From Stramenopiles sp. TOSAG23-3 (lineage: Eukaryota): a stretch of DNA of 46,289 nt. Positions 5,025 to 29,829 of the stretch are shown one piece after another; position 1 is the stretch's first letter, and each line of letters begins with the position of its first letter. Position numbers and translations under genes: made by a program. Location of the stretch: the NCBI GenBank assembly GCA_900128585.1, contig LT642169.1:1-46289 (forward strand), read 5' to 3'. Under the pieces are notes generated by a model. That model saw only the letters and a program-made list of their open reading frames with translations. It was not told the DNA's origin and did not search any database.

Positions 5025-6780
5025 GATGGATCTTCGTCTTCGTGCGCGTTAATGATTGGTAACCCTTTCCTAATGAATTCGTTGCGGCTGGACGCGTCTT
5101 CGTTAAAGCAAACACACACGCACACACACAAGTAACAGAACAGCAGCAGGCCACAAGAAAACGAGAGATATATCTTGATGGCTGGACCGTTGCGAGACGC
5201 GGATGGTAGGTAGGTAGTAGGTAGCACTGGGACTTTCAACGTAGTGAACGACACAGTAAACGCTAACTGGACACGTGCGTGATGGAAATTATGAAAATGT
5301 TTACACTCATCTCACTTCCACTAAACTCTATAATTCATTCATTCCAGTTCATAAGTTGGAAGAAGTTCTTCTATTTTTTTTTTTAAATATTATTTTATTT
5401 GCTAGCAGCTGCTCCTCACTGCTTGCTTCTTCTTCTTTTCTTCTTTCTTCTTCTTTCTTCTTATTATTATTGTGGAGTATATGATGTAGTTAGTTATTGG
5501 GTGGTTCGATGGGTGGAAAGGTTAATTTAAATTAAATAAATAAATACAAGTATAATGGTTTAGTATGAAATAGAATACGTTGTAATTTAAAATTAATCAA
5601 AGTACAATAGTGATATAGAAATGAACAATGTACAAATCAAGTACTAGTATTCTTCTAGATAAAGTATACCAACTGGGGAGGAAGAATAAATACCCTTCTG
5701 AAACAAAGAAGAACTGAGAATTAAATACTGTGTATTGTATTGTATTATATAGGTAAGTATTGTACTTATAAGTAATTATCAACTATGGAATTTATGCTTA
5801 AGGTATATATTATTCCAATTGTGCTTTTTGTTTGACGCTATAATGATAAATTTATTATATAGTATATGCATGTTTTTAATATAATAATCCTTATTTTATG
5901 AAGTGGATTTGGAATTGATTCGTCGAATTTAAAGTCGAAAAAAAAGAAGAAAATCAATCAAATTGAAATGAAGTGGGTGGTGAGAGTAGTATATGTATAC
6001 TAATAAACAATACAAGTCATAAATTGATAGGTAATATATAATTATTAATTACCCGATATGTATATGTATATATGTATTTATATACGTATTGTTATTTTTA
6101 GAATACAATATATATGTAGTTATAAAAATACTTGAAAATAATATTTAAAAACAGCTTATACAATAAAAAGAAAGGCATTTCTTTCATTCGATCTCTATGC
6201 TGTGTTTATGTAAATCAAGCGATTCTGAATAATTTTAAAATTGAACACCTGCTATTTCAACTTTAAATTACTAATGCTATGTTAAATGAACACTTTCGTC
6301 TCTTCACTTTTCATCATCCATCAGCACAACCACCAAAAATGAAGGAGAGATAATAATGGCAGTGAACGGAGGAGGGATTACAATCATCTGCTGGCTGCTG
6401 GGCTGGGCTTGGCACTGGCTGGGCCCGCCAAAAAAAACGAAGAAAGAAGATGAAGGAGGGAAGAAGGAAAGGAAACAAAACGATGGAAGGAAGAATATAC
6501 AACAACAATATGGAATGTATGATAGGTAAATATACATATTGTATTGAATTACGATAAAGGGAGGGAAAATAATTAAACCTAAGCATAATTTATTTTAATG
6601 ATACTTTAATATTACCTATGGACCTATATAGATATACATTGGAACAGTCTCATAACTATAGAAGTGTTATATAGAACGGGGGTAGGGTGGGTTTGGTTCG
6701 GTTCGGTTTGCTATATAACTAACTATACAGGAGGAGGGGAGGGAAGGAAGGAAGGAAAGAAAGAAGGAAGGAAAGAAATA

Positions 6781-6914
6781 AGAAGAGAGAAGAAGAGAGA
6801 AGAAGAGAGAAGAAGAGAGAANNNNNNNNNNNNNNNNNNNNNNNNNNNNNNNNNNNNNNNNNNNNNNNNNNNNNNNNNNNNNNNNNNNNNNNNNNNNNNN
6901 NNNNNNNNNNNNNN

Positions 6915-6945
<31 letters not shown>

Positions 6946-6991
6946 AACAAACAAACAAACAAACAAACAAACAAACAAACAAACAAACAAA
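6781..6991 (+). repeat. Compound microsatellite (AGAAGAGAGA)n / (AAAG)n / (AAAC)n spanning assembly gap 6822-6914
   Basis: Direct reading; N run 6822-6914. Confidence 0.9.
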
Positions 6992-7269
6992 CAGAGAAAG
7001 AAAAGAAAGAAAGAGTTCAGAAGAAAAATGATTGAATTTGAGGTTCTGTAATATATATAGATGCTATGTTTATGTATGAATAAATAGGTGGTGGGTGGAT
7101 ACAGCTACAATAGTAGTTCTAAATATTAATTCTACAATATAGCTACAGCATAGCTATGATATGGAATACAACTCAAGGAGTCACCTCACAGTGAAGAGTT
7201 TAAATTAAAATATAATACAGTAGCAGCATGGTTTATAAAAAAAACAATTCTCTTTTTTTTTATTTTTAT

Positions 7270-7438
7270 AAGAAAGAAGAAGAAGAAAGAAGAAGAAGAA
7301 AGAAGAAGAAAGAAGAAGAAAGAAGAAGAAGAAAGAAGAAGAAAGAAGAAGAAGAAAGAAGAAGAAAGATGAAAGAAAGAAAGAAGAAAGAAAGAAAGAA
7401 GAAAGAAAGAAAGAAAGAGGAGTCGAAAGAAAGAAAAA
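7270..7438 (+). repeat. GAA-rich polypurine microsatellite
   Basis: Nearly pure A/G tract of gaa/gaaa units. Confidence 0.9.
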
Positions 7439-7764
7439 TGTAATACTATTATAATAAAAAAATATATATAATAATAATAATAACTTTTTTAATAATAATA
7501 ATAATAATAATTAAAAAAAATATATATATAATCATCAATCAATAATAATAATTCTTTTGAAATTATTATATTGGTCTTCTTTGAATGAATTGAAACGTAT
7601 GTTACGTTCAGATAGATTTGTTTTCTTTCTTACGTATGTTTTTGTTATGTTACAAACGCAAAGTTTGTATTTTTACAGTTACCTGAACCCCATCCCATCC
7701 ATTATTTTTACTCAAACCTTTTGTTTATTTTGTTGTCGCAACGACGGACGGACGGACGGACGAA

Positions 7765-10700
7765 ATGAGCTCTTCGGGGAAACGGCGGTCTGGTAGAAGA
7801 CGGACCGGTACGAAAGGGGCCCGGTCTTCGAGACGAAAGTCGTTTTTAAATCAGATAGGGTCTTACATCGGCTTAGGAACTGCGGAGAGTGAGTCGGAGG
7901 GCTACAGCAGCCTCACAGACAACGACTCCATTGGAACGAACGGGGACCAGGACGCGCTGCCCGACGCAAGCCCGGCGAACGGACCCTCGCCGTCACGCAC
8001 CGGCTCGAGCGAGCCGAACGACAGCTTCGCCCTGGAAGAAACTCCGACGGGGGGCGACAACGGGCTTGGGGTAGGCCTTAGGCTGAAGCCCCAGCTATCC
8101 GAGGAGGAGTTGCACAAATTGAAGTACAAAGGCGCGTACGTTCGGTCGATGAAGGTGGCGAAAATCAAGACCCATCTAAAGTCGCTCGGGCTGGAGCAAG
8201 ACGGGAAAAAGGACGTCGTAAAGGCACGCTTAATCGCCGCCATCGTGGAACTCCACCACGCGGCGGAGAACCCCTATTTTTTAAAGAGCCCCAGCCCGAA
8301 GCCTTCCAAAGCATCCAAACGCTCAAAAAACGAGGCCCCAGGAAAGGCGCCTACCCGGAAGAGCCTAGAAAAAGCCGAGACCAAACCAGCGACCGCTACG
8401 CGCGCGTCTCGGCGGACGAGGAAGAAGGCCGACGAGCCCAAGGATGAGAATCCCAGCGTCTCCCCGACCCGACGGTCGACTAGGGCGAGGGCTCCACCGA
8501 AAAAGGAAGATCCGCCCGCCGTAAGACAGTCCTCGCGGAGAAACGCTGCGGTGTCCAAGACGATTTCCCCCCAAGAGGGAAACCCGAAGAAGCCGGAGAA
8601 AGCAAAGAAGGCGGCGGCCGCGAAGAAGAAGAAACCTAGCGCACGGAAGAAAACGACGGGGCGGTGGAGCGAGGAGGACAAGGCAGCCTTGGTGGAGATG
8701 AGGGATTCCGGGAGGGACTGGTCGGACATCTCCAAAGCCCTCGGGCGGTCGAAGGGCGCTGTTGAGGGCAAATATAGACAACTGAAGAAAGTGGTGGACG
8801 GCCAGAAAACAGCAAAGCCTGACGTGGAGACAGGTCGGAGGAGCACTAGAAGAAGTTCCAAACGAAAGATAGCTGACGTGGGGCATGCGGAGACCGAGGA
8901 GCCCCCAAAGCAGCGCGCACCGAGCCGCAAGCGGGCTGCCAAACCGAGCTCGCCCGCGAAGGAGCGGCTGCTAAAAGGGCGCGCTGCTTCCACCGAGGAG
9001 GCAGCAAGCGATGAGATCGAAATGGATGAAACCCCGAAGGAGCCCACGAAAATGACAAGCAAGAAGTTCAAGGATCGCAAACAGCCCCCGTATTTGGCCG
9101 AGGAGTGCCCGGACACAAGCAGAATCGGCAACGACGGCCGCATGTACAAAAGTGAAGCGAACAAGAGAGGGAAGTATCGCTGGTTGTTGGACAAGGCCGC
9201 GAAGGTGGCCAAGGCCCCTGTCGCGAAGGCGGCAAAAGCGAGCAAACGAGTCTCCAACAAGAGTGTAGTGAAGGAAGTAGTCAGGAAGCCGGAACCCGTG
9301 GAGCAAGACGTTCTGGACGACGATGCAGAAGTGGGCGCGCCTGAAGAATTCGACGCCGCAGAAGCCTCTGCGTCAGCCGAAGCCAAATCGTTCGAGGAAG
9401 ACATTGTTGAGCTTTTGCAAGACGATGAGGAGGACGAAGTCGCCGTGGAACAACTGAAACCAGCGGTGTCCCAGGCAAGCGAAGAGCTCAACTATAACGA
9501 CCCAGAAGTGTTGAAGCAGTTCATCAACAAGATTGGCAACAAGAAAATACAGAGTGAGCTCCTCTCGGGGTTGGAACGCGGTACTAAAGGGGAAGAGGAA
9601 AATGTCGAAAGGAACCAATCCCCTGAAATTGTTCTCAAACCACCACGCCGTAGCGCCGGTGGTTCTTCCCACGATGGCGCGGGCAACGAAGGCCACTCGT
9701 CCACTAGCGGGCCCGAGGCGCTAACGGTTGTAGAATTGTCCGGGATAGGGGGCAGCCTAGCACAGGACCAGAGCCCGTTTGTTGCACCCGCTCCAATAAA
9801 ACCGATTGCTCAGAAGCCAGATTCCATTACTACGCCAGAGTCTTCTTTGGTCGCAAGTGATCCCCGGAGCAGAACAGAGACCAACCAAGTAATTCGCACG
9901 TTCATTGGCATGCACCGCCGGGAAGACGCCGGGGTCACAGTTTCGAACAATACGGATAGTTGGGGCAGTGTTGCCGACGACGAACCGCGGTCCGGGTTTG
10001 TGGCGCCGTTCCAAGTACGCCCGCAGGGCAATGGGGGCACACCGGTTTACAAACACGCAGACACGCCATACGTTCAACGTGCCCAGGGGTACATGAACGG
10101 CAACGCCAATGCAGGCACCCCGCAGTTTCATGGGCCGCGGCCGGACTATGTACCGGGCGTTTACTCCATGCAGCGACGTAGCCAATACGCCCCTGTGGGC
10201 TACCTTCCAGACCCGAGAAGGTACCCGTATTCAGCGCCGAGGATGAGACCAGGAATGCAGGGGTACAACCCCACTCCCGGCCACCCGGGGTCCGGGAAAA
10301 GGCCGAGGCCTGTCGATCTGCCGTATTTGACTTACTCCACGAGTCGCCCGGTTGCCCAAAATGGGGCACTCATGCGGTCGGATCTCGAAAGTCCAACGCC
10401 GTACGCCCAGCGTCATTCTGCAAAGAAACGGCGGACGTCTGTTGGCGGATACTTGGGAACTCCAGGAAATTTTTCGTACGGGCAACCTCCGTTTTCCTCC
10501 AGAAACGCATATTCATCTTCTTATACCGATGGGTATGCAAGGCCGCGTTCCAAGCCACGAATACGTGGGCCTGTGAACCAAATTTTGCTAGGAAATTCAG
10601 CTACAAAATCGCCAGCATCAACACCAATCAGATCGACTGATGTTGCAAAACGAATCCTTGATACGCTGGAACAAATGTCTACTCCAATGAGTAGAAAGTC

Positions 10701-13209
10701 TACGTCTTCCACGCCATTCAAGGTTGGAGCGATCGCTGCCGCACACGGGCAGGCGATAGCAAACGTAGACAACAAAAACTCGTGGGGAAACGGCAGCCAA
10801 CGCAGCACGCCGGGCAACACGTTCGGAGACTCCAAAAGTTCCCCTGGTGGACTCAATTTGTCCAGGAAAGTCAAAAGCAACCCGTTGAGTTTGCAAGATG
10901 TGCTGTCGTCTGCGAAGGGGAACAATTCGACTGACGGGAGGGCGGCATTGCCCGAGCTTTCTGTTTTTTCCGGGTACAAAGAGAAGCCCAACTTAAACAC
11001 GTTATTCAACAATTCAAGTGATCATACGGCACAGAAACCGCTGGCAACGGCAAAGCCGGCAAAAACGAAAGAGTCGCCGGCAGCGCCAGCGCCAAGTACC
11101 AAACCAGTAGCAAAGTTTCGCATGCCGATAAGAGTTCAGAGCTTTGTGTTTTCGCCGCCCCCGTCGAACAATACTGGTGGGGCAAGTCAGGTCGTGAGTG
11201 AAGTTAAACGTGCAGGTAAATCGTCGGCATTTTCTTTCCGCGAGATTGACGCAAATGCCGATAATTTGAACATGGCATACCCTACTCAGCTCGTTGCGGA
11301 CGTCGATGATTCGCCAACTGAAAGTACTCCGACGAAGCCGACGGGTGGCACCATCAAGGATGTTGTGCCATCGAAGAAAGCGGTCACGGCGGCTCCCGGG
11401 GCAAACCCGTGGGCAGCACACCTTCCAAAACCGGGAGAGTGGGTATGCCCGGCGTGTTCCGTCCGAAATAAAAAAGGGGCTGCAAAATGCGTCTCTTGCG
11501 AATCAGAAAACCCCAATGGAGGAGGGGCTGCCTCATCTGCTGCTCCAAGTAAGCCACATGCATCAAGCGGCCCCAAATTCACGTTTGGCGCAGCGCCCAA
11601 GTCGGGGCTGGTCGATAGCAAAAGCGATGCTCCGAAATTTTCGTTTGGGGCAGCACCGAAATCAGGGCTAGCTGACAAAAAAACAAAGAGCGATGCTCCG
11701 AAATTCTCATTTGGTGCCCCTGCGAAGTCCAGTGGCCCCAAATTTTCTTTTGGGGCTATGAAGCCACCCGGAGAAGGAGACGATGATAGTGACGACGATT
11801 CCTCTAGTGCACCAAAAAAGAAAAAAAGGTCGAATCCTGGAAGTACTTTTAAGATGACAATTCCAGAGGCAAAGAGTAAGACACCAACGAAATCCAGCAG
11901 TGGGATGTTCTCATTCGGAGGGTCATCTGCAACATCTACCGACGCTCCAAAAGCGGCAAGTGCTGCAAGTACATTTAAATTCGGTGGTTCTTCAGCTGTC
12001 AGTAAGCCCGCAGACAGTTCCGCGCCAACGTTTGGTAGCGGGGGGGCCCTGCCCATCCCTGCAGCGAAAACTGACGATTCGTCCAGTAGCTCTGGGGGGG
12101 CTGGTGGGTTAACCTTTGGGGCTACTGGCGACGCGCCAAAAGCGGCAAGTGCTGCAAGCACGTTTAAATTTGGTGGATCTTCGGCTGTCATGCCAGCATT
12201 TGGCAGTACACCTGCTCCTGCTCCATCTGCTTCACCTGCCGCTTCGTTTGTATTTGGTGGGGCACCGACTGCCAGCAAACCAGAGAGTTCAGTGCCAGCA
12301 TTTGGTAGCGCACCTGCACCTGCGCCATCTGCTTCGCCTGCCAGTTCGTTTGTGTTTGGGGGTGCGAGCAATACAAATAGCACCACCGCTGCCGCGCCAG
12401 CAACGACTGGGGCAGCATCATCGTTTCAGTTTGGAGCAGGTGGTGCAAATAGTTCAACCACAAACAACACTAGTTCTGCTCCTGCTGCCGGGGCCTTTCA
12501 GTTCGGGGCCACCGGTTCGAACAACGCAATGGGCGGCAATGCCATTGGCGGGGGGAATGCTATGGGCGGTATGAATACACAAGCACCCTCAAGTGGATTT
12601 GGAGGCGGCAGTACGTTTGGAGGTGGCAACGGTAGCAACACTACTGGATTTGGGACCTCGAACGCTGCGGCAGGATTCGGAAGCGGCGCAGTCACTGGGT
12701 TTGGAGGCCAGGCTGCTGCACCCTCGAACACAATGGGTACCAGTGCCGCAGGTGCTGCGGGCTTCGGCAACCCACCGATGAGTTCTGGCGGTGCAATGTT
12801 TGGCAATGGAAACAGCAATGGGAATACTTTCGGGGGCGGCAATACCAACACCTTCGGTGGAAATGCTGCCCCAGCGGCCCAAGGAAGTTTCGGTGCTGTT
12901 CCACAGGGTAATGCCTTTGGTGGTAGCGCAGCGGGGTTTGGAAACCAGGCCGGGCAAGCAGCGCAAGCCTTCGGCGGCAGTGCAGCGTCTACAGGCTTCG
13001 GAGCCCCAGCTGCAACATCAGGTTTTGGAAACAGCATGGGCGGTGGCGGTTTTGGTGGCGCAGTAGCTAGCAGTGCGGGAGGCTTTGGCGGTGGTATGGG
13101 CGGAGGTTTCGGAGCCGCGCCCGGCGGTGGCGGGGGCGGAGGGACCTTCAGTATGGGAACCAAAGCGAAGCCCGGAAGAAAGAGGGTGAAGGCGAAACGA
13201 AGAAGATGA
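7765..13209 (+). CDS. Nup153/Nup1-like nuclear basket FG nucleoporin with SAP, Myb-like and RanBP2 zinc-finger domains
   Basis: 1814 aa. SAP-like MKVAKIKTHLKSLGLEQDGKKDVVKARL; Myb-like RWSEEDKAAL..RDWSDISKALGRSKGAVEGKY; AKRILDTLEQMSTP (Nup153-like); RanBP2 ZnF GEWVCPACSVRN..KCVSC; many FxFG/FG repeats; basic C-terminus RKRVKAKRRR like the Nup153/Nup1 importin-binding tail. Confidence 0.85.
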   Translation: MSSSGKRRSGRRRTGTKGARSSRRKSFLNQIGSYIGLGTAESESEGYSSLTDNDSIGTNGDQDALPDASPANGPSPSRTGSSEPNDSFALEETPTGGDNGLGVGLRLKPQLSEEELHKLKYKGAYVRSMKVAKIKTHLKSLGLEQDGKKDVVKARLIAAIVELHHAAENPYFLKSPSPKPSKASKRSKNEAPGKAPTRKSLEKAETKPATATRASRRTRKKADEPKDENPSVSPTRRSTRARAPPKKEDPPAVRQSSRRNAAVSKTISPQEGNPKKPEKAKKAAAAKKKKPSARKKTTGRWSEEDKAALVEMRDSGRDWSDISKALGRSKGAVEGKYRQLKKVVDGQKTAKPDVETGRRSTRRSSKRKIADVGHAETEEPPKQRAPSRKRAAKPSSPAKERLLKGRAASTEEAASDEIEMDETPKEPTKMTSKKFKDRKQPPYLAEECPDTSRIGNDGRMYKSEANKRGKYRWLLDKAAKVAKAPVAKAAKASKRVSNKSVVKEVVRKPEPVEQDVLDDDAEVGAPEEFDAAEASASAEAKSFEEDIVELLQDDEEDEVAVEQLKPAVSQASEELNYNDPEVLKQFINKIGNKKIQSELLSGLERGTKGEEENVERNQSPEIVLKPPRRSAGGSSHDGAGNEGHSSTSGPEALTVVELSGIGGSLAQDQSPFVAPAPIKPIAQKPDSITTPESSLVASDPRSRTETNQVIRTFIGMHRREDAGVTVSNNTDSWGSVADDEPRSGFVAPFQVRPQGNGGTPVYKHADTPYVQRAQGYMNGNANAGTPQFHGPRPDYVPGVYSMQRRSQYAPVGYLPDPRRYPYSAPRMRPGMQGYNPTPGHPGSGKRPRPVDLPYLTYSTSRPVAQNGALMRSDLESPTPYAQRHSAKKRRTSVGGYLGTPGNFSYGQPPFSSRNAYSSSYTDGYARPRSKPRIRGPVNQILLGNSATKSPASTPIRSTDVAKRILDTLEQMSTPMSRKSTSSTPFKVGAIAAAHGQAIANVDNKNSWGNGSQRSTPGNTFGDSKSSPGGLNLSRKVKSNPLSLQDVLSSAKGNNSTDGRAALPELSVFSGYKEKPNLNTLFNNSSDHTAQKPLATAKPAKTKESPAAPAPSTKPVAKFRMPIRVQSFVFSPPPSNNTGGASQVVSEVKRAGKSSAFSFREIDANADNLNMAYPTQLVADVDDSPTESTPTKPTGGTIKDVVPSKKAVTAAPGANPWAAHLPKPGEWVCPACSVRNKKGAAKCVSCESENPNGGGAASSAAPSKPHASSGPKFTFGAAPKSGLVDSKSDAPKFSFGAAPKSGLADKKTKSDAPKFSFGAPAKSSGPKFSFGAMKPPGEGDDDSDDDSSSAPKKKKRSNPGSTFKMTIPEAKSKTPTKSSSGMFSFGGSSATSTDAPKAASAASTFKFGGSSAVSKPADSSAPTFGSGGALPIPAAKTDDSSSSSGGAGGLTFGATGDAPKAASAASTFKFGGSSAVMPAFGSTPAPAPSASPAASFVFGGAPTASKPESSVPAFGSAPAPAPSASPASSFVFGGASNTNSTTAAAPATTGAASSFQFGAGGANSSTTNNTSSAPAAGAFQFGATGSNNAMGGNAIGGGNAMGGMNTQAPSSGFGGGSTFGGGNGSNTTGFGTSNAAAGFGSGAVTGFGGQAAAPSNTMGTSAAGAAGFGNPPMSSGGAMFGNGNSNGNTFGGGNTNTFGGNAAPAAQGSFGAVPQGNAFGGSAAGFGNQAGQAAQAFGGSAASTGFGAPAATSGFGNSMGGGGFGGAVASSAGGFGGGMGGGFGAAPGGGGGGGTFSMGTKAKPGRKRVKAKRRR

Positions 13210-13256
13210 GAGTGGCCAAAGCACTGTAACAAAACCAATTAATTTGTTATCATGCT

Positions 13257-13279
13257 AAATAACAGCCAATTTTCTTGTT
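13257..13279 (-). repeat. Dispersed 3'-flank element (AACAAGAAAATTGGCTGTTATTT), copy A, flanked by 14-bp direct repeat
   Basis: aaataacagccaattttcttgtt lies between two copies of tttgttatcatgct (13243-13256 and 13280-13293); same motif at 27586, 29943, 30370, 35784. Confidence 0.85.
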
Positions 13280-13489
13280 TTTGTTATCATGCTTCTTCCA
13301 CAATCCGTGGGGGGAAAACATTGTTTTGTTTTTCTTCCTCCACTCCCGCAAAGAAGCGAATTTTAAAATATTAAGAAATTTTTTTAATTCACATAGGTTA
13401 TTAAGAAAATATACTAACCTCGTGTATATACATATGGATCAGTTGAGCCTGCAGGCGTAAGTTCTTACTTTAAACTACGAAGTAAGTTC

Positions 13490-17943: not shown

Positions 17944-20900
17944 CTATACAGGGCTTTTTACAAAGCGTGAGAGTATCGCGCTCTCTTGTTGCCTGCGAAC
18001 CCGCAGGACATGCGTCACCGATGAGTGGACGTCAAAGAAAAAGTTCGACTTGCCAATCATATCAACAAACCCGGCATGCTTTAACGTTGTGTACACATTG
18101 CTGGTGCATTTCGCCACGTACACTTGAACGCCTCCTAATCCGTTGATTTGTTCAAAAAGCTGCGATATGCCAATTGCAGCAGTTGCATCAATCCACGGAA
18201 TGCAGCTAAAGTCTAGCACCAAGCTTTCCCACAAAAGGAGACCATCGTCGCCTGTACTGTTGGCTAAGTGCTCGTTTACAGTCTTCTCCAACTCGGAAAA
18301 GTTAGCAAAAAACAGGGGGGCTTCAAACCGCAGTATCAAAATCCCGTCTGGTCTCTTAATTCTGGAATTCGATTTGCCAGATTTTAAAGGTCTGTAATCG
18401 GTCGAGTTGGGTGCTCGACCGAGCGTTGATATGACCGGAACGGACGCGGCCTTCAAAAATATTGCAATAGAAAGCGCGACACTGGCTAATAATCCGTTTG
18501 TAATTCCCAAGGTCATAGTAAATATGGCCCCGAGAACAAGAAGAAAAAAATCGCTTTTGGAAATTTTCCACAACATTTTAATTTCCTTGACATCAACCAG
18601 GCCGCTGACAGCGCCGATGATTACCACTGCAATGACAAACTTTGGAAGAAACGCAATTGCGGGGGCGACGGTAAAAGTAATTACAAGGGCAAACAGCGCC
18701 GACAGCAAAAGACTCATTTGCGAGACGGCGCCAGCTGACACATTGATTGCCGTTCGAGAAAACCCACCCCCCGTAACAAAGCATGAAAACAAACCACCGA
18801 ATATGTTCGATAACCCAAGGGCAAAGAGTTCGTGGTTTTCATCGACGGACACTTTGATCTTTTGCGCGCAAATTTTAGCATTTGCAAGGTGTTCGATGAG
18901 CATCAAAGATGAAAGAAGCAAGCAATTCATTGCCAAAGTAGCGTAAACGGAGAAGGGGACCGGGGGGGCGTTGGGTGCATTTACAATGGGGGCAATCGGG
19001 CCTATGACGGCAACGGCTCCACATTTGTACTTCCCTGTCTCGGCTGAAGTGGCTGCGCAAAACCGGGATTGCTTAGCGAGCAGCTCGTTCTTTGTAAAGT
19101 TTGAGTAATCTATTATGCTACCATACATGGGCTCTCCATTTTTTTCTCCACACGTAAGATTAATTACCTGCTTCAAAATATTAATTCGGTGCTCATATGA
19201 CAAAACAACAAAGTTATGTTTCTCCGATGCTTCCAGCGCGAGCGGGGAAGTGTACAACCACATCAAAAAGTCCACTACAGCTCTTCGTTCCGTACAAGTT
19301 CTGCGGGAATTGGGCCTAGAAAACTTTCTCATTGCAATATAGGTGTAACTTGAGATAGGCCACGCCCCCGTCGACGAATTTACGGACGCACTGGAGATCA
19401 AATCCAACGGCCTCGCAGACCCCCTCGCCGCTGCTATGGCCGCGTGCACAGCTTCACGAGACGGGGTAATTGGAACCTTGGCACCGTTCTCAAAGGCTAT
19501 GCACTGAAGATCTTTGTGGCGCTTTACGTCTCCCACCACAGCGTACCCAATACTGTACGGCGTGGAATAGACCACATCGATCACTCCGGCATTGTACAGC
19601 CCTTTTATCGATGAAGATGGCCAGGCCGCCACCTTGCCCACCCCAGGAGTGAAATTAGAGACAAACGACGCAAGCGCACTGGTAAAAATGGCCGTTGTCC
19701 CGGAACTATCCTGACGCACAACTGGCTGGATCTTTTTATGGGGCAGCAAAAGCATGAAGTTGGGATTTTGTGCCAAAATATCTTCGTGGTCCCAATACTG
19801 TATATCCCCCTTGAATATTTTTGCCAGCGTAGCTTTCTTCAGCACCAAGTGCGCCGATTCCCCAAGGGGGACACCGGGGACATTGGCAGTAGCGCATACA
19901 GCTGATGCTAGAGATGGGACAAGCAGTACAGCCTCTGCGTTAGTATTGTATGTGGCATACGTCGAGTTTTTAATTTCCACGTCTGTTCCAGCAAAGTCAA
20001 CTGTGTTCTCTAAGATAGATTTTATACCATTGCCAGATCCCGTCGGTAAGTATTTTACCCGCTGGGCTTTGTCGCCGTGGCACTCAAACGTAGTCGCCGC
20101 CAACTGATATGCCCATGCTGGAAGGGATGCACCAACACCACTGGCCGCAGCAATAATGTCTTTCCCTACGGTTTCTGACGCACTAGTACGAAACGCTTCG
20201 AAGTCGCAGAGCGATCCTCCAAATAGCATACCGATAACCAAGAGAACCACGACTGGGTGAAATTGTGAAACGCACTTGGAAACCCGCTTTCTTCTGATTT
20301 CATTCTTGTCAAGGTCGTTCTCGGAAGGTAGGTCAGCGCCTTTGGCTTTCTCTTCATCGGACTGGTAACCTTCAATTTCCTTGCGTAAATGGTCTTCCCC
20401 GGGCTTGACCCACAACGGTTTGAATCCCGACTTTGCCGCTCGGTGCACCTGTTTAAGCGCAGCGGCAAAAACGATGGTAAACAGTGCACATACGAATGTA
20501 AATACTTCCAACGAAGAGATTGATTCAAAAATGTTCGGAAGCAACGTTTGAATAGCCGATGACTTATTGTACGATATCCCAAATACATGCTTCAATTGAC
20601 CTAGTATTACTAGAAACGCCGATGCACTCACAAACCCTTTTAGAACTGGTCGCGATACCAACGTGCTTGTCATGGAGCCGACGCGCAACAAAGAAAGTAG
20701 GATTAGTAACGCCCCGCACAAAATGGTACATGCTAGAACTATGTGCACCCTAGTATACGTAGGGTGTAAGTTGTGGAATTCGTCCACGATGGACCCCAGC
20801 AGCAAGCATGGTATGCTCATTGGACCAATTGCGATGTTCTTGGAGCCGCCAAACAGGCTATAGATCAATGCTGGAAAAATCACGGAGTAGCAACCAAGCT

Positions 20901-22446
20901 CAGGGGATACCCCAACAAGAGAGGAATACGCAATGCCTTGAGCGACGCCCACAATTGAGATGGAAATGGCAGCGGTTGTGTCTTTAACAAGCATTTGTTT
21001 GATGTTGTAGCGGGGAAGCCACCCAACGATCGTTTTGTGTCTTGTGGCCGCCAAGCAATTTTCTACTCCAACACGCCAGCTCTTGTGACTGCCATCCTCG
21101 TCCCTCGCTGCATCCAATCGTTCGTGGAACTGCTTGCTTGTTGTATCCTCCTTCTCTTCCAGCGTTTCCCGCAGCACAAAATTGGCAGTCTCTACAGACT
21201 TTTCGGGCTCATCTTCTTCACTGCTATCTTGGTACCGTTTAAGCGACGCGCGATCCCGGCGACCTTTGACGCCAAACAGCAAACAGTATGCATTGCACAA
21301 CTGTTCGACCGATAGGCTGACGTCTGGGTCCACCGTGCCGATGTTTTCAGCAAAGAGACTCATCAGCGACCCAAACATTTCTATCTTTGTTTCCAGAATT
21401 CGAATATTGCTCTCTGCAAATGAAGCATCGTTTATCATAGGGGCTAACATTGGCCCCAAGTTTAGCACAATTTGGTCCGTATGGCGGCTCGAGTCGGTAC
21501 CGGCCATGCCAGGGTTCACCGTTTCCAGCGCCATTTTCGACACCTTTACGGCATCCAGTATCCCCTTAGTTGCCCTTGTCCTCGGGCTGAGCACTCCCAA
21601 ACGTGCGACGTCCGCATCAGTGTACGTTTTGTATTTAATTTTTGCGTCTTTCCACAAGGCTTCGATGGACGATATCGAATTGAGCATCAGCTGCGAGTCG
21701 TCCAACTGCTTCATGAACGAATGCAAGGAGTGTTTGTTCACTTTTTTGTCAAACTTCTTAACAATCTTATAAAACCCTGTGTAATTCAACTCAATAAACG
21801 CCGCCAACCTCGCGATCTCCACCGTTATAACCGCTTGCATTTTCTCCGTGTCCATATTCGATTCGATAGCGACTGGGCGGTCGACTCTCTCCATTTCGCT
21901 TTTGCCCACCTCTCCGTCTTTGCCCCCGTCACTCTCCAAAGAGGCGACTGTTTCTCCCGATTTTGTTTCAACGTACAAATTTATGCGCTCCTTTACCCTT
22001 TCCGCCTCCACCGTGGCAAACTTTATTATCGTCCGAAGCTCCCTATTCAATATAAAAAAGAAGTAGCGGCACAGCAACCTACTGGACGCCTGTTTTGGAA
22101 AGCTTCTGGACATTTCTTCGAGCTTCCTCTGCCGAGATTCTGCTTTTCGCCCCCCGCCCCCGCTGCCCCCCGCCCTGCTTTCCTCGTCGCTACTTTCACT
22201 GCTGACGGCTATGTTCCCTCTGCGAGACTCCAGGTGATTAATCAAGGCCTTCATTTCCTTCCACCTTTCTTTGAATATTTCACCCCGAAGTTTGTGGTTT
22301 ACCTTTTCTGCGTCGGCGCATTTGTTTTCATTCTGTAGTTTTGCGAATGCGGCCAACGATATCAGTTTTTTTAATTCGTTGTAACGGAGGTAGTGTCCTT
22401 TCCACTCTGGGAAAGCCTCCCGAATAATTCGGGAGCCGAACTTCAT
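17944..22446 (-). CDS. SPX - SulP/SLC26 transporter - STAS protein with an inserted PstS-type phosphate-binding domain
   Basis: ATG at 22446 gives canonical SPX start MKFG; YLRYNELKKLI and NYTGFYKIVKKFDKK basic clusters. SulP motifs WLPRY..D..A.ISI....VAQGIAYS, YSLFGGSKNIAIGP, SRPVLKGFVSASA, DENHELFALGLSN, GGFSRTAIN. STAS ILRFEAPLFFAN..LVLDFSCIPWIDATA. PstS motifs GVGASLP, TGSGNG, VDFAGTD, IFKGDIQYWD, VVRQDSSGTT, SIGY, AWPISSYTY at about 19200-20150. Confidence 0.93.
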   Translation of the reverse strand: MKFGSRIIREAFPEWKGHYLRYNELKKLISLAAFAKLQNENKCADAEKVNHKLRGEIFKERWKEMKALINHLESRRGNIAVSSESSDEESRAGGSGGGGRKAESRQRKLEEMSRSFPKQASSRLLCRYFFFILNRELRTIIKFATVEAERVKERINLYVETKSGETVASLESDGGKDGEVGKSEMERVDRPVAIESNMDTEKMQAVITVEIARLAAFIELNYTGFYKIVKKFDKKVNKHSLHSFMKQLDDSQLMLNSISSIEALWKDAKIKYKTYTDADVARLGVLSPRTRATKGILDAVKVSKMALETVNPGMAGTDSSRHTDQIVLNLGPMLAPMINDASFAESNIRILETKIEMFGSLMSLFAENIGTVDPDVSLSVEQLCNAYCLLFGVKGRRDRASLKRYQDSSEEDEPEKSVETANFVLRETLEEKEDTTSKQFHERLDAARDEDGSHKSWRVGVENCLAATRHKTIVGWLPRYNIKQMLVKDTTAAISISIVGVAQGIAYSSLVGVSPELGCYSVIFPALIYSLFGGSKNIAIGPMSIPCLLLGSIVDEFHNLHPTYTRVHIVLACTILCGALLILLSLLRVGSMTSTLVSRPVLKGFVSASAFLVILGQLKHVFGISYNKSSAIQTLLPNIFESISSLEVFTFVCALFTIVFAAALKQVHRAAKSGFKPLWVKPGEDHLRKEIEGYQSDEEKAKGADLPSENDLDKNEIRRKRVSKCVSQFHPVVVLLVIGMLFGGSLCDFEAFRTSASETVGKDIIAAASGVGASLPAWAYQLAATTFECHGDKAQRVKYLPTGSGNGIKSILENTVDFAGTDVEIKNSTYATYNTNAEAVLLVPSLASAVCATANVPGVPLGESAHLVLKKATLAKIFKGDIQYWDHEDILAQNPNFMLLLPHKKIQPVVRQDSSGTTAIFTSALASFVSNFTPGVGKVAAWPSSSIKGLYNAGVIDVVYSTPYSIGYAVVGDVKRHKDLQCIAFENGAKVPITPSREAVHAAIAAARGSARPLDLISSASVNSSTGAWPISSYTYIAMRKFSRPNSRRTCTERRAVVDFLMWLYTSPLALEASEKHNFVVLSYEHRINILKQVINLTCGEKNGEPMYGSIIDYSNFTKNELLAKQSRFCAATSAETGKYKCGAVAVIGPIAPIVNAPNAPPVPFSVYATLAMNCLLLSSLMLIEHLANAKICAQKIKVSVDENHELFALGLSNIFGGLFSCFVTGGGFSRTAINVSAGAVSQMSLLLSALFALVITFTVAPAIAFLPKFVIAVVIIGAVSGLVDVKEIKMLWKISKSDFFLLVLGAIFTMTLGITNGLLASVALSIAIFLKAASVPVISTLGRAPNSTDYRPLKSGKSNSRIKRPDGILILRFEAPLFFANFSELEKTVNEHLANSTGDDGLLLWESLVLDFSCIPWIDATAAIGISQLFEQINGLGGVQVYVAKCTSNVYTTLKHAGFVDMIGKSNFFFDVHSSVTHVLRVRRQQESAILSRFVKSPV

Positions 22447-27897: not shown

Positions 27898-29829
27898 ATG
27901 CAGTTCTGTAAGCCCAGTCGGGCGATTTTCGTTGTTGACGACCTTCGACAATTTGTTCAGTCCGATACGTATGCGGGTATTATGCATTTTCTTGGGTCTA
28001 TAGTGAATGCGGTGAAAGGGAAAAATAACCAGATTAACCTGGGTGAAGGTGCGTCCATGACCGTCAAAAGCATTCTGAACATTGTGAATCTCGCGTCAGA
28101 AATTACTGACAGCGTTCCGCCAGAAAAGCAAGCCGCGAGATTTGGCAACAAGGCGTTTCGGACGTGGCACACTACTATCTTGTCCCGTCTGCCAGAAAAG
28201 GTGGCCAGCATCATCCCGTCAGACCAGCAGCAAGCGTGTGTTGAAGTCATTGCTTACCTGTTCGACAGTTTCGGGAACACGACGAGGATCGACTATGGGA
28301 CGGGCCACGAAGTAAATTTTGTGCTATTCTTATACTGCTTCTGGAAACTTGGGCTGCTGAAAGAGCCTGACCTTGCCGCGGTTGGCTTGTGCGTGCTACC
28401 GCGTTACTTTACTTTGGTCCGAAAGCTTATTTTTACCTACAACTTGGAGCCGGCTGGATCCCACGGCGTTTGGTCACTGGACGACTATAGTTTCTTGCCG
28501 TTTTTGCTTGGGTCTTCTCAACTGATCGGCCACAAATTCGTGAAACCAAAATCGATCCTGTACATGGACACGGTAGAGGCCTACGAGGACAAGTACATGT
28601 ACCTAGGAACGGTCGCCAACATTACCAGGCTTAAATCTGGGCCGTTCAAAGAACACTCGCACATTCTGTATGACATTGCGTCCAACTTGAAAGGCTGGGG
28701 AAACATTTGCCAAGGCCTGCGACGCATGTTCGAAGTAGAGGTGATGGGAAAGTTGCCTGTGATGCAGCACCTGACCTTTGGGTCGATCGTCCGCTCCACC
28801 TGGGAAGTGAAAACGGTGGACGCCGGCAAGCTGAAGAAGAACCCCTTCGCCAAGCCAGAAGAAGTGTTTCAGGTCAGCGGGACATGCACCCTTACAAAAT
28901 ATTTCAACTTCAAACGGTCTGGGGCGCGCTCGGGTATGAAGCCAACGATCCGAGCCCCGCCGGCCGCACCGACTCATGGAACGGGCGATGCACAGTTTGA
29001 ATCGTTGGAGGACGGGAAAGGAATCCTCCTAAAGGGGTGGAAAATTTCATCCAACAAGGGAACCATCAGCGACGAAGACACGTTCAACGCCATCAAAGAC
29101 AACTATGGAATCACGTTCTCTCCCCCAGAAATGTTTTTCGGTTCTAACTATGTGAGGCTGTCCCATGTTGAATCGGGGATTTCGTATAATTTTGGCGCCA
29201 TGGAGGCGCTGGCAGGGTGCAAAGTCACCTTTGATGCGAATGGGAACCCAGATCGTCGCATTTTCAAACATTCCCTCGCCGACACGTGGTCGAAACGGGC
29301 AGACCACAACGTGGCCATTGCAAAAAATACCGTCACCGACTTTGATTGGACGTATACCACCTACTATTCGGGCCACTTCTCGTGCACGGAGTCTGGCACA
29401 CCGGCCAATGTTGCCGTGTCGAACAGCACCGAAGATTCAATCGATTACGCCCGGCTACGTCAGAGAGACCCCATTTTGTGGCACGATGCCGTAAATCTTT
29501 TCGAAGCAGAATTAGACGATAATGGGAACGGCCAGCTGAACGTAAAAATTCGCGTGATGCCCTCTTGTTTTTTCTGTTTGTCTAGATTTTGGCTTCGTGT
29601 GGACGGGATGCTTCTGCGCGTGTTGGACACTCGCCTGTATCATGTATTTGGCACCGACAAACTGGTGTTCGAGAAATCGGTAAGAGAGATTACGTACGAT
29701 CAGTTAAAAAGCCAAGGGATGTCTACCAACGACAGAGATTACACCGACCCAGACAAGTTTGTGAACCTGGTCCCGGTCGTGAAACAATGGAACGAAGTAG
29801 CTTACTTGAGGTCGCAGAAGCAGAACTGA
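27898..29829 (+). CDS. PTPA: PTPA (PP2A phosphatase activator) - TIP41/TIPRL fusion protein
   Basis: PTPA motifs RFGNKAFRTW, SFGNTTRIDYGTGHE, YNLEPAGSHGVWSLDDY.FLPFL.GSSQL, EVMGKLPVMQH.TFGS. TIP41 motifs PEMFFGSN, FDWTYTT.Y.G, ID..RL..RDPIL, LFEAELDDNG, KIRVMP..FF.LSRFWLRVDG..R..DTR. One open frame; first ATG at 27898. Confidence 0.92.
   Translation: MQFCKPSRAIFVVDDLRQFVQSDTYAGIMHFLGSIVNAVKGKNNQINLGEGASMTVKSILNIVNLASEITDSVPPEKQAARFGNKAFRTWHTTILSRLPEKVASIIPSDQQQACVEVIAYLFDSFGNTTRIDYGTGHEVNFVLFLYCFWKLGLLKEPDLAAVGLCVLPRYFTLVRKLIFTYNLEPAGSHGVWSLDDYSFLPFLLGSSQLIGHKFVKPKSILYMDTVEAYEDKYMYLGTVANITRLKSGPFKEHSHILYDIASNLKGWGNICQGLRRMFEVEVMGKLPVMQHLTFGSIVRSTWEVKTVDAGKLKKNPFAKPEEVFQVSGTCTLTKYFNFKRSGARSGMKPTIRAPPAAPTHGTGDAQFESLEDGKGILLKGWKISSNKGTISDEDTFNAIKDNYGITFSPPEMFFGSNYVRLSHVESGISYNFGAMEALAGCKVTFDANGNPDRRIFKHSLADTWSKRADHNVAIAKNTVTDFDWTYTTYYSGHFSCTESGTPANVAVSNSTEDSIDYARLRQRDPILWHDAVNLFEAELDDNGNGQLNVKIRVMPSCFFCLSRFWLRVDGMLLRVLDTRLYHVFGTDKLVFEKSVREITYDQLKSQGMSTNDRDYTDPDKFVNLVPVVKQWNEVAYLRSQKQN

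What the first reader, a model, noticed from the sequence alone, without database searches (positions are those of the whole stretch)
8140..8790. Nuclear-basket nucleoporin carrying SAP and Myb-like DNA-binding domains
Seen: a SAP-like motif (8140-8245) and a Myb/SANT-like repeat (8659-8790) within a Lys/Arg-rich N-terminal third, in frame with a Nup153-type ZnF, FG repeats and basic tail. Established: vertebrate Nup153 and yeast Nup1 lack SAP and Myb domains; SAP domains bind AT-rich DNA. Inference: a direct pore-chromatin tether, notable in a genome with extremely AT-rich spacers.
Basis: partly seen in the sequence, partly recalled or inferred. Interest (0 to 1): 0.5.

Follow-up and report, generated by a model that had tools for sequence, protein, structure and literature searches.

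The report
Pore protein with built-in chromatin-binding modules
An uncultured marine protist makes a nuclear-pore protein of the Nup153 type whose front end carries three small nucleic-acid-binding-type domains, so the pore may hold on to chromatin (or RNA) directly instead of through adaptor proteins.

Summary
Window 7765-13209 (+) is one uninterrupted 1814-codon ORF. Pfam places SAP at residues 128-159, a Myb-like repeat at 299-343 and a RanBP2-type zinc finger at 1222-1250, each with a significant E-value but 0.3-1.6 bits under the curated cut-off. AlphaFold models both N-terminal domains (SAP pLDDT 73-85, Myb 95-97), and they superpose on solved SAP and Myb domains.

A second assembly gives the same full-length protein. 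A 2004-aa orthologue at 31-38% identity has SAP and the zinc finger above cut-off in one chain.

Three points are new:
- A 16-residue amphipathic motif, plus a colinear stretch running to the zinc finger, links the protein to a Pfam-Nup153 protein.
- SAP is conserved in three lineages, but Myb is not. The orthologue has a second SAP there.
- A third basic module (425-475) is unnamed in Pfam, has no PDB fold match and is shared with giant-virus proteins.

DNA binding and pore location are untested. I class this as a new variant of a known kind.

The parts
7765..13209 (+). Whole gene: single intronless ORF, 1814 aa plus stop (P0001)
   Evidence: GC is 0.48-0.64 along the ORF against 0.29-0.34 in the upstream spacer. 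A 99%-identical full-length protein P0156 comes from another assembly.
7765..7872 (+). Arg/Lys-rich N-terminus followed by a short hydrophobic-faced helix (residues 24-35); possible membrane-binding amphipathic helix
   Evidence: Helix 24-35 in the model, but pLDDT is only about 50. Hydrophobic moment ranks 41 of 1800 windows here and 9 of 1990 in orthologue P0154. The function is inference only.
8101..8268 (+). Extended SAP module (residues 113-168; Pfam core 128-159 = nt 8146-8241)
   Evidence: Pfam E 1e-4. pLDDT 73-85. Z 8.8, rmsd 1.4 A over 56 residues to the 3'hExo SAP region. 1zrj SAP: rmsd 0.8 A over 35 columns. The block is conserved in P0153 and P0154 and passes the cut-off there.
8269..8658 (+). 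Lys/Arg/Ala/Pro-rich disordered linker, net charge +29
   Evidence: Composition. pLDDT below 50. Equally basic but poorly aligned in the orthologue.
8659..8811 (+). Single Myb/SANT-like three-helix repeat (residues 299-349; aromatic triad W301, W319, Y337 read from the sequence)
   Evidence: Pfam PF13921 E 1.2e-4 and PF00249 E 8e-3. PDB sequence search: DMTF1 Myb-like 1, E 0.024. pLDDT 95-97. Z 7.5-8.1 to Cdc5/CDC5L Myb, 6.5-6.8 to c-Myb R1 and T. vaginalis Myb2. Net charge +3. No Myb reported in P0154 by Pfam.
9037..9189 (+). Module 3 (residues 425-475): unnamed basic mini-domain, a short helix plus a three-stranded sheet, net charge +7
   Evidence: 88 of the 151 other proteins in hand match it. 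No Pfam family. pLDDT 91-96 with a 36-row alignment. No PDB match. Giant-virus matches in BFVD. Orthologous fragment P0009 is 77% identical over 52 residues.
10636..10698 (+). Nup153-type amphipathic motif (residues 958-978, core AKRILDTLEQMSTPMS)
   Evidence: 13 of 16 residues identical to residues 130-145 of P0048. P0048 matches Pfam Nup153 (PF08604, E 2.5e-18), and that match covers this stretch. The core is identical in orthologue P0154. It is among the most amphipathic 14-residue windows in both proteins: tied top in P0001, top in P0154.
11428..11514 (+). Single RanBP2-type zinc finger (residues 1222-1250; W-x-C-x2-C-x3-N-x6-C-x2-C)
   Evidence: Pfam E 4e-6 and 39 bits in P0154. The top 23 rows of the PDB search are all Nup153 or RanBP2/Nup358 fingers.
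11572..13155 (+). FG-repeat domain: FxFG/FSFG repeats first, then GFG-type in a Gly/Ala/Ser matrix
   Evidence: 33 FG, 11 of them FxFG; composition G 21%, A 19%, S 16%, F 8%. Aligns with the FG domain of P0154 and with ZnF+FG proteins.
13156..13206 (+). Basic C-terminal tail (Lys/Arg-rich), conserved in the orthologue
   Evidence: P0154 ends in a similar Lys/Arg run after the same poly-Gly stretch.

Best explanation
The gene encodes a Nup153-type nuclear-basket FG nucleoporin. Its N-terminal third has been extended with nucleic-acid-binding-type modules: an extended SAP domain, a very basic linker, one Myb-like repeat and a small basic domain shared with giant viruses. Proposed working: the middle of the protein (the Nup153-type amphipathic motif and the colinear stretch up to the zinc finger) docks it on the nuclear face of the pore. 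The zinc finger and the FxFG/GFG domain serve Ran and transport receptors, as in Nup153. The SAP-linker-Myb-module 3 array binds DNA or chromatin directly, plausibly the AT-rich spacers. Genes or spacer DNA would then be held at pores, and/or pores would be seeded on chromatin. Shown here: the architecture, that it is one gene, conservation of the SAP-nucleoporin link, and the folds. Inferred: pore location, the ligand, and any AT preference.
For: One ORF. The same full-length protein occurs in a second assembly. Orthologue P0154 (2004 aa) aligns at residues 87-249 (38% identity, E 5e-27) and 705-1654 (31%, E 3e-63). It has SAP at 31.0 bits and the zinc finger at 39.0 bits, both above cut-off. 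A third lineage (P0153/P0158/P0160, about 74% identical to P0154) has the same N-terminus with SAP at 41.6 bits. For Nup153 kinship: the motif is 13/16 identical to PF08604-positive P0048; P0154 877-1184 is colinear with P0048 124-404 (E 3e-10); and the zinc finger is nearest to Nup153/Nup358 fingers. The best non-self hits over the C-terminal half are ZnF+FG proteins. Module 3 is basic (+7 over 51 residues). In other proteins it is joined to ATP-dependent DNA ligase domains, Rho_N/SAP-type domains and H1-like basic tails, and in BFVD to a histone-2A-domain protein. Spacers in the window are AT-rich, GC 0.25-0.35. Precedent for a nucleoporin that binds chromatin directly: ELYS (abstracts of PMC11217421 and PMC7764596).
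Against: No binding or localisation data exist. All three HMM hits in the window protein are below Pfam's curated cut-offs. Pfam's Nup153 model (PF08604) does not match P0001 or P0154, so kinship rests on a short motif plus a low-identity colinear alignment. Myb and module 3 are not conserved in the 31-38% orthologue, so they are not essential to the protein's core job. A lone Myb/SANT repeat can bind histones, RNA or proteins rather than DNA. The best structural match for the SAP module is an RNA-binding SAP (3'hExo). Foldseek E-values for the 360-residue model are all above 0.001. Transcript continuity could not be checked because read laying was not possible.
Confidence: 0.55

Rival explanations
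1. Same basket nucleoporin, but the N-terminal modules bind RNA or mRNP proteins rather than DNA. The protein would be a built-in docking site for export-competent mRNPs, doing in one chain what SAP-bearing export adaptors do elsewhere.
For: The SAP module's best structural matches are 3'hExo chains in complex with the histone mRNA stem-loop (Z 8.3-8.8). The best Myb matches are Cdc5/CDC5L in spliceosomes, and 6jui is titled 'two distinct nucleic acid-binding surfaces'. [quoted passage not shown]
Against: DEK-nucleosome SAP chains and other DNA-type SAP domains are also among the matches. Partners of module 3 (DNA ligase, a histone-2A-domain protein, H1-like tails) point to DNA or chromatin. 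Fold similarity does not tell the ligand.
Confidence: 0.2
2. A chromatin-bound FG protein that is not a stable pore component. The N-terminus parks it on chromatin, and the FG domain recruits transport receptors or forms condensates inside the nucleus. This would be a natural counterpart of leukaemia fusions such as DEK-NUP214.
For: The layout (SAP-bearing chromatin part at the N-terminus, long FG domain at the C-terminus) parallels DEK-NUP214, which keeps DEK residues 1-349 with its SAP domain and 42 of 44 FG repeats (passages of PMC12468270). There is no beta-propeller or coiled-coil scaffold domain by Pfam.
Against: The Nup153-type motif and the colinear stretch to the finger are conserved. 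Nup153 itself anchors through short motifs, not folded scaffold domains (passages of PMC11392808).
Confidence: 0.12
3. The SAP and Myb calls are chance matches in a low-complexity basic region, or the long ORF is an assembly chimera of two genes.
For: The HMM scores are under the curated cut-offs. One gene call in another assembly (P0002) starts inside the ORF, at residue 264. There is an assembly gap upstream of the gene.
Against: The modules are modelled with confidence and match solved domains. The SAP block is about 59% identical to a relative over 87-101 residues and passes the cut-off there. Full-length P0156 (1820 aa) and the EukProt model P0155 (residues 1-915) start at the same Met. 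P0154 joins SAP and the zinc finger in one chain. The gap lies outside the ORF.
Confidence: 0.03

Closest known systems
Vertebrate/metazoan Nup153 (Pfam PF08604 + Zn_ribbon_RanBP + FxFG); represented here by P0048
   Same: Same order of parts: a disordered N-terminal half with an amphipathic motif (13/16 identical), a colinear stretch, RanBP2-type zinc finger(s) of the same class, then a C-terminal FxFG domain.
   Different: One finger here against 9 matched stretches in P0048. The PF08604 model itself does not match. Pfam reports no SAP, Myb or module 3 in P0048. A long GFG-type tail is present here.
Yeast Nup60/Nup1 (basket 'suspension cable' built from short linear motifs)
   Same: A largely disordered chain that would connect several partners through short helices. 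An N-terminal amphipathic helix is known for Nup60 (passages of PMC11392808). A helix of Nup153 (305-320) is predicted there to bind Tpr in the same way that Nup60 SLiM B binds Mlp1. From memory and from the Pfam profile position, I suspect this is the motif found here, but I did not verify it.
   Different: No sequence match to Nup60 or Nup1 was tested. As I recall (no call here), yeast proteins lack zinc fingers and SAP/Myb domains.
ELYS/MEL-28, the chromatin-binding nucleoporin
   Same: A nucleoporin that binds chromatin directly and links it to pores (abstracts of PMC11217421, PMC7764596 and PMC4920428). Functionally this is the nearest precedent for a pore-chromatin tether.
   Different: ELYS uses an AT-hook and a scaffold-binding beta-propeller/helical part (search listing and abstracts only) and is not an FG nucleoporin. 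No AT-hook core was found here: 0 matches to [RK]GR[PG].
DEK-NUP214 leukaemia fusion protein
   Same: SAP-bearing chromatin protein at the N-terminus, long FG domain at the C-terminus, similar size (1626 aa) (passages of PMC12468270).
   Different: It is a somatic chromosomal translocation product, not an evolved gene, and has no Nup153 motif or zinc finger.
Giant-virus proteins carrying module 3 (BFVD: Iridovirus LCIVAC01 A0A481YQU5, Feldmannia irregularis virus FirrV-1-A7, Marseillevirus histone-2A-domain protein A0A481YSA7, and others)
   Same: The same roughly 50-residue fold and sequence pattern, 35-46% identity, rmsd 0.7-3.5 A. Conserved columns are R, P, A, G-N, W (invariant) and Y, P, C, D-G, S (at least 90%).
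   Different: The viral and metagenomic copies mostly sit at the extreme N-terminus, often as 2-4 tandem copies, and keep a first Cys. That Cys is missing here and in P0009. None of the 88 copies examined lies in a ZnF/FG protein.

Membership tests
Nup153-type basket FG nucleoporin | RanBP2-type zinc finger of the Ran-binding nucleoporin class | tested here: met
   The C4 pattern is complete in the sequence. Pfam E 4e-6, 26.4 bits, 0.6 under the cut-off; 39.0 bits in orthologue P0154. The top 23 PDB rows are all Nup153 or RanBP2/Nup358. Ran binding itself was not tested.
Nup153-type basket FG nucleoporin | C-terminal FxFG/FG repeat domain | tested here: met
   33 FG in residues 1256-1800, 11 of them FxFG. 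Conserved in P0154: 46 FG, 18 FxFG.
Nup153-type basket FG nucleoporin | Match to the Nup153 N-terminal family (Pfam PF08604) | tested here: inconclusive
   No PF08604 hit for P0001, for its residues 901-1212, or for P0154. However, the motif is 13/16 identical to the PF08604-matched part of P0048, and a colinear HSP links P0154 877-1184 to P0048 124-404 at E 3e-10.
Nup153-type basket FG nucleoporin | Location on the nuclear face of the pore; binding to Tpr/Mlp and the outer ring | not testable with these tools
   No genome is held for this organism, so its Tpr homologue could not be fetched. No localisation data exist.
Nup153-type basket FG nucleoporin | N-terminal membrane-binding amphipathic helix | tested here: inconclusive
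   Helix 24-35 is modelled at pLDDT of about 50. Hydrophobic moment is moderate: rank 41 of 1800, and rank 9 of 1990 in P0154.
SAP domain (PF02037) | Profile match | tested here: inconclusive
   Window protein: E 1e-4 but 22.3 bits against a cut-off of 23.9. The orthologous position passes in P0154 (31.0) and P0153 (41.6).
SAP domain (PF02037) | Helix-extended loop-helix fold | tested here: met
   Helices 131-140 and 149-168 with a leading helix 113-128, pLDDT 73-85. Z 8.8, rmsd 1.4 A, 56 residues to the 3'hExo SAP region. 1zrj SAP: rmsd 0.8 A over 35 columns, 37% identity.
SAP domain (PF02037) | Binds (AT-rich) DNA | not testable with these tools
   Needs a binding assay. The AT preference of SAP domains is recalled knowledge, not tested here.
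Myb/SANT repeat (PF13921 / PF00249) | Profile match | tested here: inconclusive
   PF13921 E 1.2e-4, 22.6 bits against 22.9; PF00249 E 8e-3, 16.6 bits against 24.4. PDB sequence search: DMTF1 Myb-like 1, E 0.024.
Myb/SANT repeat (PF13921 / PF00249) | Three-helix bundle with three evenly spaced aromatic residues | tested here: met
   Helices 303-314, 319-326 and 330-349 at pLDDT 95-97. W301, W319 and Y337 are 18 residues apart (read). Z 7.5-8.1 to Cdc5-type Myb repeats, 6.5 to c-Myb R1. That tool's own note warns that Z under 8 is common for small helical units.
Myb/SANT repeat (PF13921 / PF00249) | Sequence-specific DNA binding (usually needs two or more repeats or a telobox-type repeat) | not testable with these tools
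   There is only one repeat. Net charge +3 leans towards the Myb type rather than the acidic SANT type, but this is weak inference.

The most novel reading that the evidence does not exclude
In this protist lineage the nuclear basket is wired straight to DNA. A Nup153 homologue reads the AT-rich spacers between genes through SAP plus interchangeable accessory modules (a Myb repeat and a giant-virus-type basic domain in one lineage, a second SAP in another). Gene-to-pore attachment would then be encoded by one polypeptide. The accessory module shared with giant viruses would mark either a viral gift to the host pore or a host chromatin-binding handle that viruses copy.
Probability: 0.25. Interest if true: 0.7.

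Novelty: new variant of a known kind. Interest (0 to 1): 0.5.

Why it matters
Contacts between the pore basket and the genome (gene gating, pore seeding on chromatin) are usually traced to indirect or weak interactions. Animal ELYS is the one clear nucleoporin with its own DNA-binding element. A Nup153-type protein with a conserved SAP domain and swappable extra modules would be a simple, testable case of a direct pore-chromatin (or pore-RNA) link in a distant eukaryote. The conserved 16-residue motif also gives a handle for recognising Nup153 homologues far outside animals, where a 2005 survey still listed Nup153 as metazoan-specific (passage of PMC1257468). Module 3 is a widespread domain that is unnamed in Pfam, has no solved-structure match, is shared by protists and giant viruses, and deserves a family description. 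Three full-text searches combining SAP domain with nucleoporin, Nup153 or nuclear basket returned no paper whose title or abstract start describes a natural SAP-bearing nucleoporin (passages were read for only two of them). Subscription journals were not searched.

Tried and rejected
The word shares show presence in RNA-derived contigs only, not continuity.
- Whole-genome search for paralogues and for a Tpr homologue: no genome is held.
- Orthologous loci in JGI metagenome contigs: two scans. The first used a poor low-complexity pattern and the second used SAP-block patterns. Both found no relative.
- ESM Atlas on module 3: no usable hit.
- Pfam on module 3 and eight of its relatives: only scattered hits at E of 0.01 or worse. 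I considered from memory the virus-specific '2-cysteine adaptor' and 'PBCV basic adaptor' domains, but no Pfam hit supports either.
- PDB fold searches for module 3: 0 of 48,161 chains at Z of 2 or more, and best Foldseek E 1.3. For so small a domain this does not prove a new fold.
- AT-hook and SPKK-type motifs in the linker: 0 AT-hook cores, 0 [ST]P[KR][KR], 7 [ST]Px[KR].
- P0153 (540 aa) first looked like a SAP-only protein. P0158 (756 aa) and P0154 (2004 aa) show it is a truncated gene call.
- Source names for P0048 and the module 3 proteins: none informative.
- Earlier scan notes by word and by sequence: nothing on this protein.
- Complex prediction was not used, because no partner sequence from this organism was available.
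Full report
**What is there.** Window 7765-13209 (+) is a single open reading frame of 1814 codons. It starts at the first ATG/GTG/TTG after an upstream stop. It lies in a gene-dense eukaryotic stretch where genes are GC-rich (0.5-0.6), mostly intronless-looking ORFs, separated by AT-rich spacers (GC 0.25-0.35). Earlier notes of this scan call the organism an uncultured marine protist; no whole genome is held. GC stays at 0.48-0.64 along the ORF. GC3 falls from about 0.71 in the first 500 codons to 0.4-0.5 in the FG part. I did not test whether amino-acid composition explains that fall.

**Checking the observation.**
- Pfam places SAP at residues 128-159 (E 1e-4, 22.3 bits, cut-off 23.9).
- It places Myb_DNA-bind_6 at 301-343 (E 1.2e-4, 22.6 bits against 22.9) and Myb_DNA-binding at 299-340 (E 8e-3).
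- It places Zn_ribbon_RanBP at 1222-1250 (E 4e-6, 26.4 bits against 27).
- The segment between SAP and Myb is 30% Lys+Arg with net charge +27. The C-terminal 545 residues hold 33 FG dipeptides (11 FxFG) in a Gly/Ala/Ser matrix. The last 14 residues hold 9 Lys/Arg.

Because every HMM hit is a little under its curated cut-off, I sought independent support. An AlphaFold model of residues 1-360 (5-row alignment) is disordered overall (mean pLDDT 57). It has two confident islands: helices 113-128, 131-140 and 149-168 (pLDDT 73-85) and helices 303-314, 319-326 and 330-349 (pLDDT 95-97).

Foldseek against the PDB found nothing at E of 0.001 or better for this mostly disordered 360-residue query. Its top rows are nevertheless SAP domains (3'hExo, DEK on the nucleosome, E1B-AP5 1zrj at rmsd 0.8 A over 35 columns, Hcc-1) and Myb/SANT domains (DMTF1, KIAA1915). 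Re-alignment with VIA-align gives Z 8.8, rmsd 1.4 A over 56 residues for 111-166 against the SAP region of 3'hExo. It gives Z 7.5-8.1 for 299-353 against Cdc5/CDC5L Myb repeats, and 6.5-6.8 against c-Myb R1 and Trichomonas Myb2. That tool warns that Z under 8 is common for small helical units. I therefore treat the Myb fold as supported mainly by the pLDDT, the HMM hit and the W301-W319-Y337 spacing.

**One gene or two.** The word-based search first found only P0002, a 99%-identical 1558-aa call that starts at residue 264 with a Val read as Met. Its cluster also holds two other members:
- P0156, a 1820-aa protein from another contig, identical at 1802 of 1820 aligned positions from Met1 to the end, with one 6-residue indel in the FG region.
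- P0155, a EukProt model that covers residues 1-915 from the same Met.

The internal start of P0002 is therefore a gene-caller choice, not a gene boundary. RNA-derived contigs of three metatranscriptome runs hold 0.84, 0.75 and 0.67 of the sampled words of 7400-13400. I could not lay reads, so transcript continuity is not shown directly.

**Relatives.** An exhaustive HMMER search with residues 100-1290 found 314 proteins at E of 0.001 or better. I re-scored the 151 proteins then in hand locally; 150 had a stretch at E below 0.01:

| Class matched | Proteins |
|---|---|
| Residues ~425-475 only (module 3) | 87 |
| Zinc finger only | 32 |
| Finger plus FG | 15 |
| Myb only | 5 |
| FG only | 5 |
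| Middle-region classes | 6 |
| SAP | 0 |

A search restricted to a 56-residue piece of the middle region then found P0154 (2004 aa). It aligns with the window protein at 87-249 (38% identity, E 5e-27) and 705-1654 (31%, E 3e-63). Conserved blocks are:
- the pre-SAP Gly-rich block;
- the SAP module;
- an F-V-x-P-F-Q-V block;
- a Tyr/Ser/Arg block;
- the motif AKRILDTLEQMSTP;
- an F-V-F-S-P-P block;
- the zinc finger;
- the FG repeats;
- the poly-Gly plus basic tail.

In P0154 both SAP (31.0 bits, two stretches) and the finger (39.0 bits) pass Pfam's cut-offs. A third lineage (P0153, P0158, P0160; about 74% identical to P0154) has the same N-terminus, with SAP at 41.6 bits. The SAP-nucleoporin link is thus conserved across at least three lineages.

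The region between about 250 and 700 does not align. Pfam reports no Myb in P0154, and where the window protein has Myb, P0154 and P0153 have a second SAP-like segment. Module 3 is confirmed only in the window lineage and in P0009, a 119-aa fragment from a closer relative (77% identical over 52 residues).

**Why Nup153-type.** The zinc finger has the complete W-x-C-x2-C-x3-N-x6-C-x2-C pattern. In a PDB sequence search its top 23 rows are all Nup153 or RanBP2/Nup358 fingers, ahead of RNA-binding and ubiquitin-binding fingers. A pattern search of all proteins in hand showed that the middle-region motif recurs in P0048 (ARRILDTLEQYSTPVS, 13 of 16 identical). P0048 is a 1031-aa protein with nine matched finger stretches and a significant match to Pfam Nup153 (PF08604, E 2.5e-18) that covers this motif. 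P0154 and P0048 align colinearly from the motif to the first finger (877-1184 against 124-404, E 3e-10).

The motif is among the most amphipathic 14-residue windows in both orthologues: tied top in P0001, top in P0154. This fits a docking helix. A published AlphaFold-Multimer analysis predicts that Nup153(305-320) forms a helix that binds Tpr the way Nup60 SLiM B binds Mlp1 (passages of PMC11392808). By memory of the vertebrate sequence and by the Pfam profile position, I suspect this is the same motif, but I could not verify it. PF08604 itself does not match P0001 or P0154, so family membership at the HMM level remains inconclusive.

**Module 3.** Residues 425-475 form a basic unit (+7) with invariant R, P, A, G-N and W columns and nearly invariant Y, P, C, D-G and S columns.
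- Occurrence: 88 of the 151 proteins in hand carry it, mostly at the extreme N-terminus and often in 2-4 tandem copies.
- Pfam: no family matches it.
- Model: with a 36-row alignment it models at pLDDT 91-96 as a short helix plus a three-stranded sheet.
- Solved structures: none matches, with 0 of 48,161 chains at Z of 2 or more and best Foldseek E 1.3.
- Viral models: in BFVD the first 24 rows are all giant-virus proteins. Four are at E of 0.001 or better: Iridovirus LCIVAC01, Feldmannia irregularis virus, Sylvanvirus, and a Marseillevirus histone-2A-domain protein.
- Partners elsewhere: ATP-dependent DNA ligase domains (P0007, P0038), Rho_N/SAP-type domains (P0098, P0141), H1-like basic tails, DUF5771, RING, ubiquitin, DUF922 and pentapeptide repeats.

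The partners lean towards DNA or chromatin, but the function is inferred.

**How it most likely works.** Shown: one polypeptide joins a conserved SAP module (plus lineage-specific Myb and module 3 in a strongly basic linker) to a Nup153-like middle part, a Nup153-class zinc finger and an FxFG/GFG domain. Inferred: the middle motifs dock the chain at the nuclear face of the pore. The finger and FG repeats work in transport as in Nup153. The N-terminal array holds DNA or chromatin, giving a direct pore-chromatin tether or a chromatin seed for pore assembly, as ELYS does in animals (abstracts). I put this at about 0.55.

The main rival (0.2) keeps the nucleoporin but makes RNA or mRNPs the ligand, since the closest solved SAP and Myb matches act on RNA. 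A nucleoplasmic chromatin-FG protein, a natural analogue of DEK-NUP214, gets 0.12. An artefact or a two-gene reading gets 0.03.

**Novelty.** The parts are known, but the combination is not one I could find. Three full-text searches joining SAP domain with nucleoporin, Nup153 or nuclear basket returned 3, 5 and 6 papers. None has a title or abstract start describing a natural SAP-bearing nucleoporin, and passages were read for only two of them. The library lacks most subscription journals, and I read no supplements. I rate it a new variant of a known kind with moderate interest. Interest would rise if DNA binding and pore location were shown.

Noticed in passing
window 27898-29829 (+): One 643-aa ORF joins PTPA (E 2e-102) and TIP41 (E 3e-51), two regulators of PP2A-type phosphatases, in a single chain.
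   Followed up: no
window 17944-22446 (-): A 1500-aa ORF combines SPX, a periplasmic-binding-protein-like domain (PBP_like_2), a SulP-type sulfate permease and STAS. This is an unusual sensor-plus-transporter fusion.
   Followed up: no
window 39441-41927 (+): An 828-aa ORF has EF-hands, a caspase-like (Peptidase_C14) domain and ankyrin repeats. It is possibly a calcium-regulated metacaspase-type protein.
   Followed up: no
window 9037-9189 (+) and proteins P0005, P0007, P0038, P0098, P0141: The roughly 50-residue basic module (module 3) is a widespread domain that is unnamed in Pfam and has no solved-structure match. It occurs in metagenomic and giant-virus proteins, often in tandem at N-termini, and is fused to DNA ligase or Rho_N/SAP-type domains. 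It merits its own family description.
   Followed up: partly
window 6660-7450: The spacer upstream of the gene is a purine-rich simple repeat that reads as Lys/Glu/Arg runs in several frames. It contains an assembly gap; the window holds 158 N in all.
   Followed up: no
P0001 residue 300 and FG region around 1474-1476: Strain variants (P0002, P0156) differ by Arg300Pro, directly before the first Trp of the Myb repeat, and by a 6-residue indel in an FG spacer.
   Followed up: no
P0154 / P0153 residues about 350-390: In the orthologues a second SAP-like segment stands roughly where the window protein has its Myb repeat (Pfam: two SAP stretches; SAP_new25 at E 0.023 in P0153). This suggests module swapping within a conserved basic linker.
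   Followed up: partly
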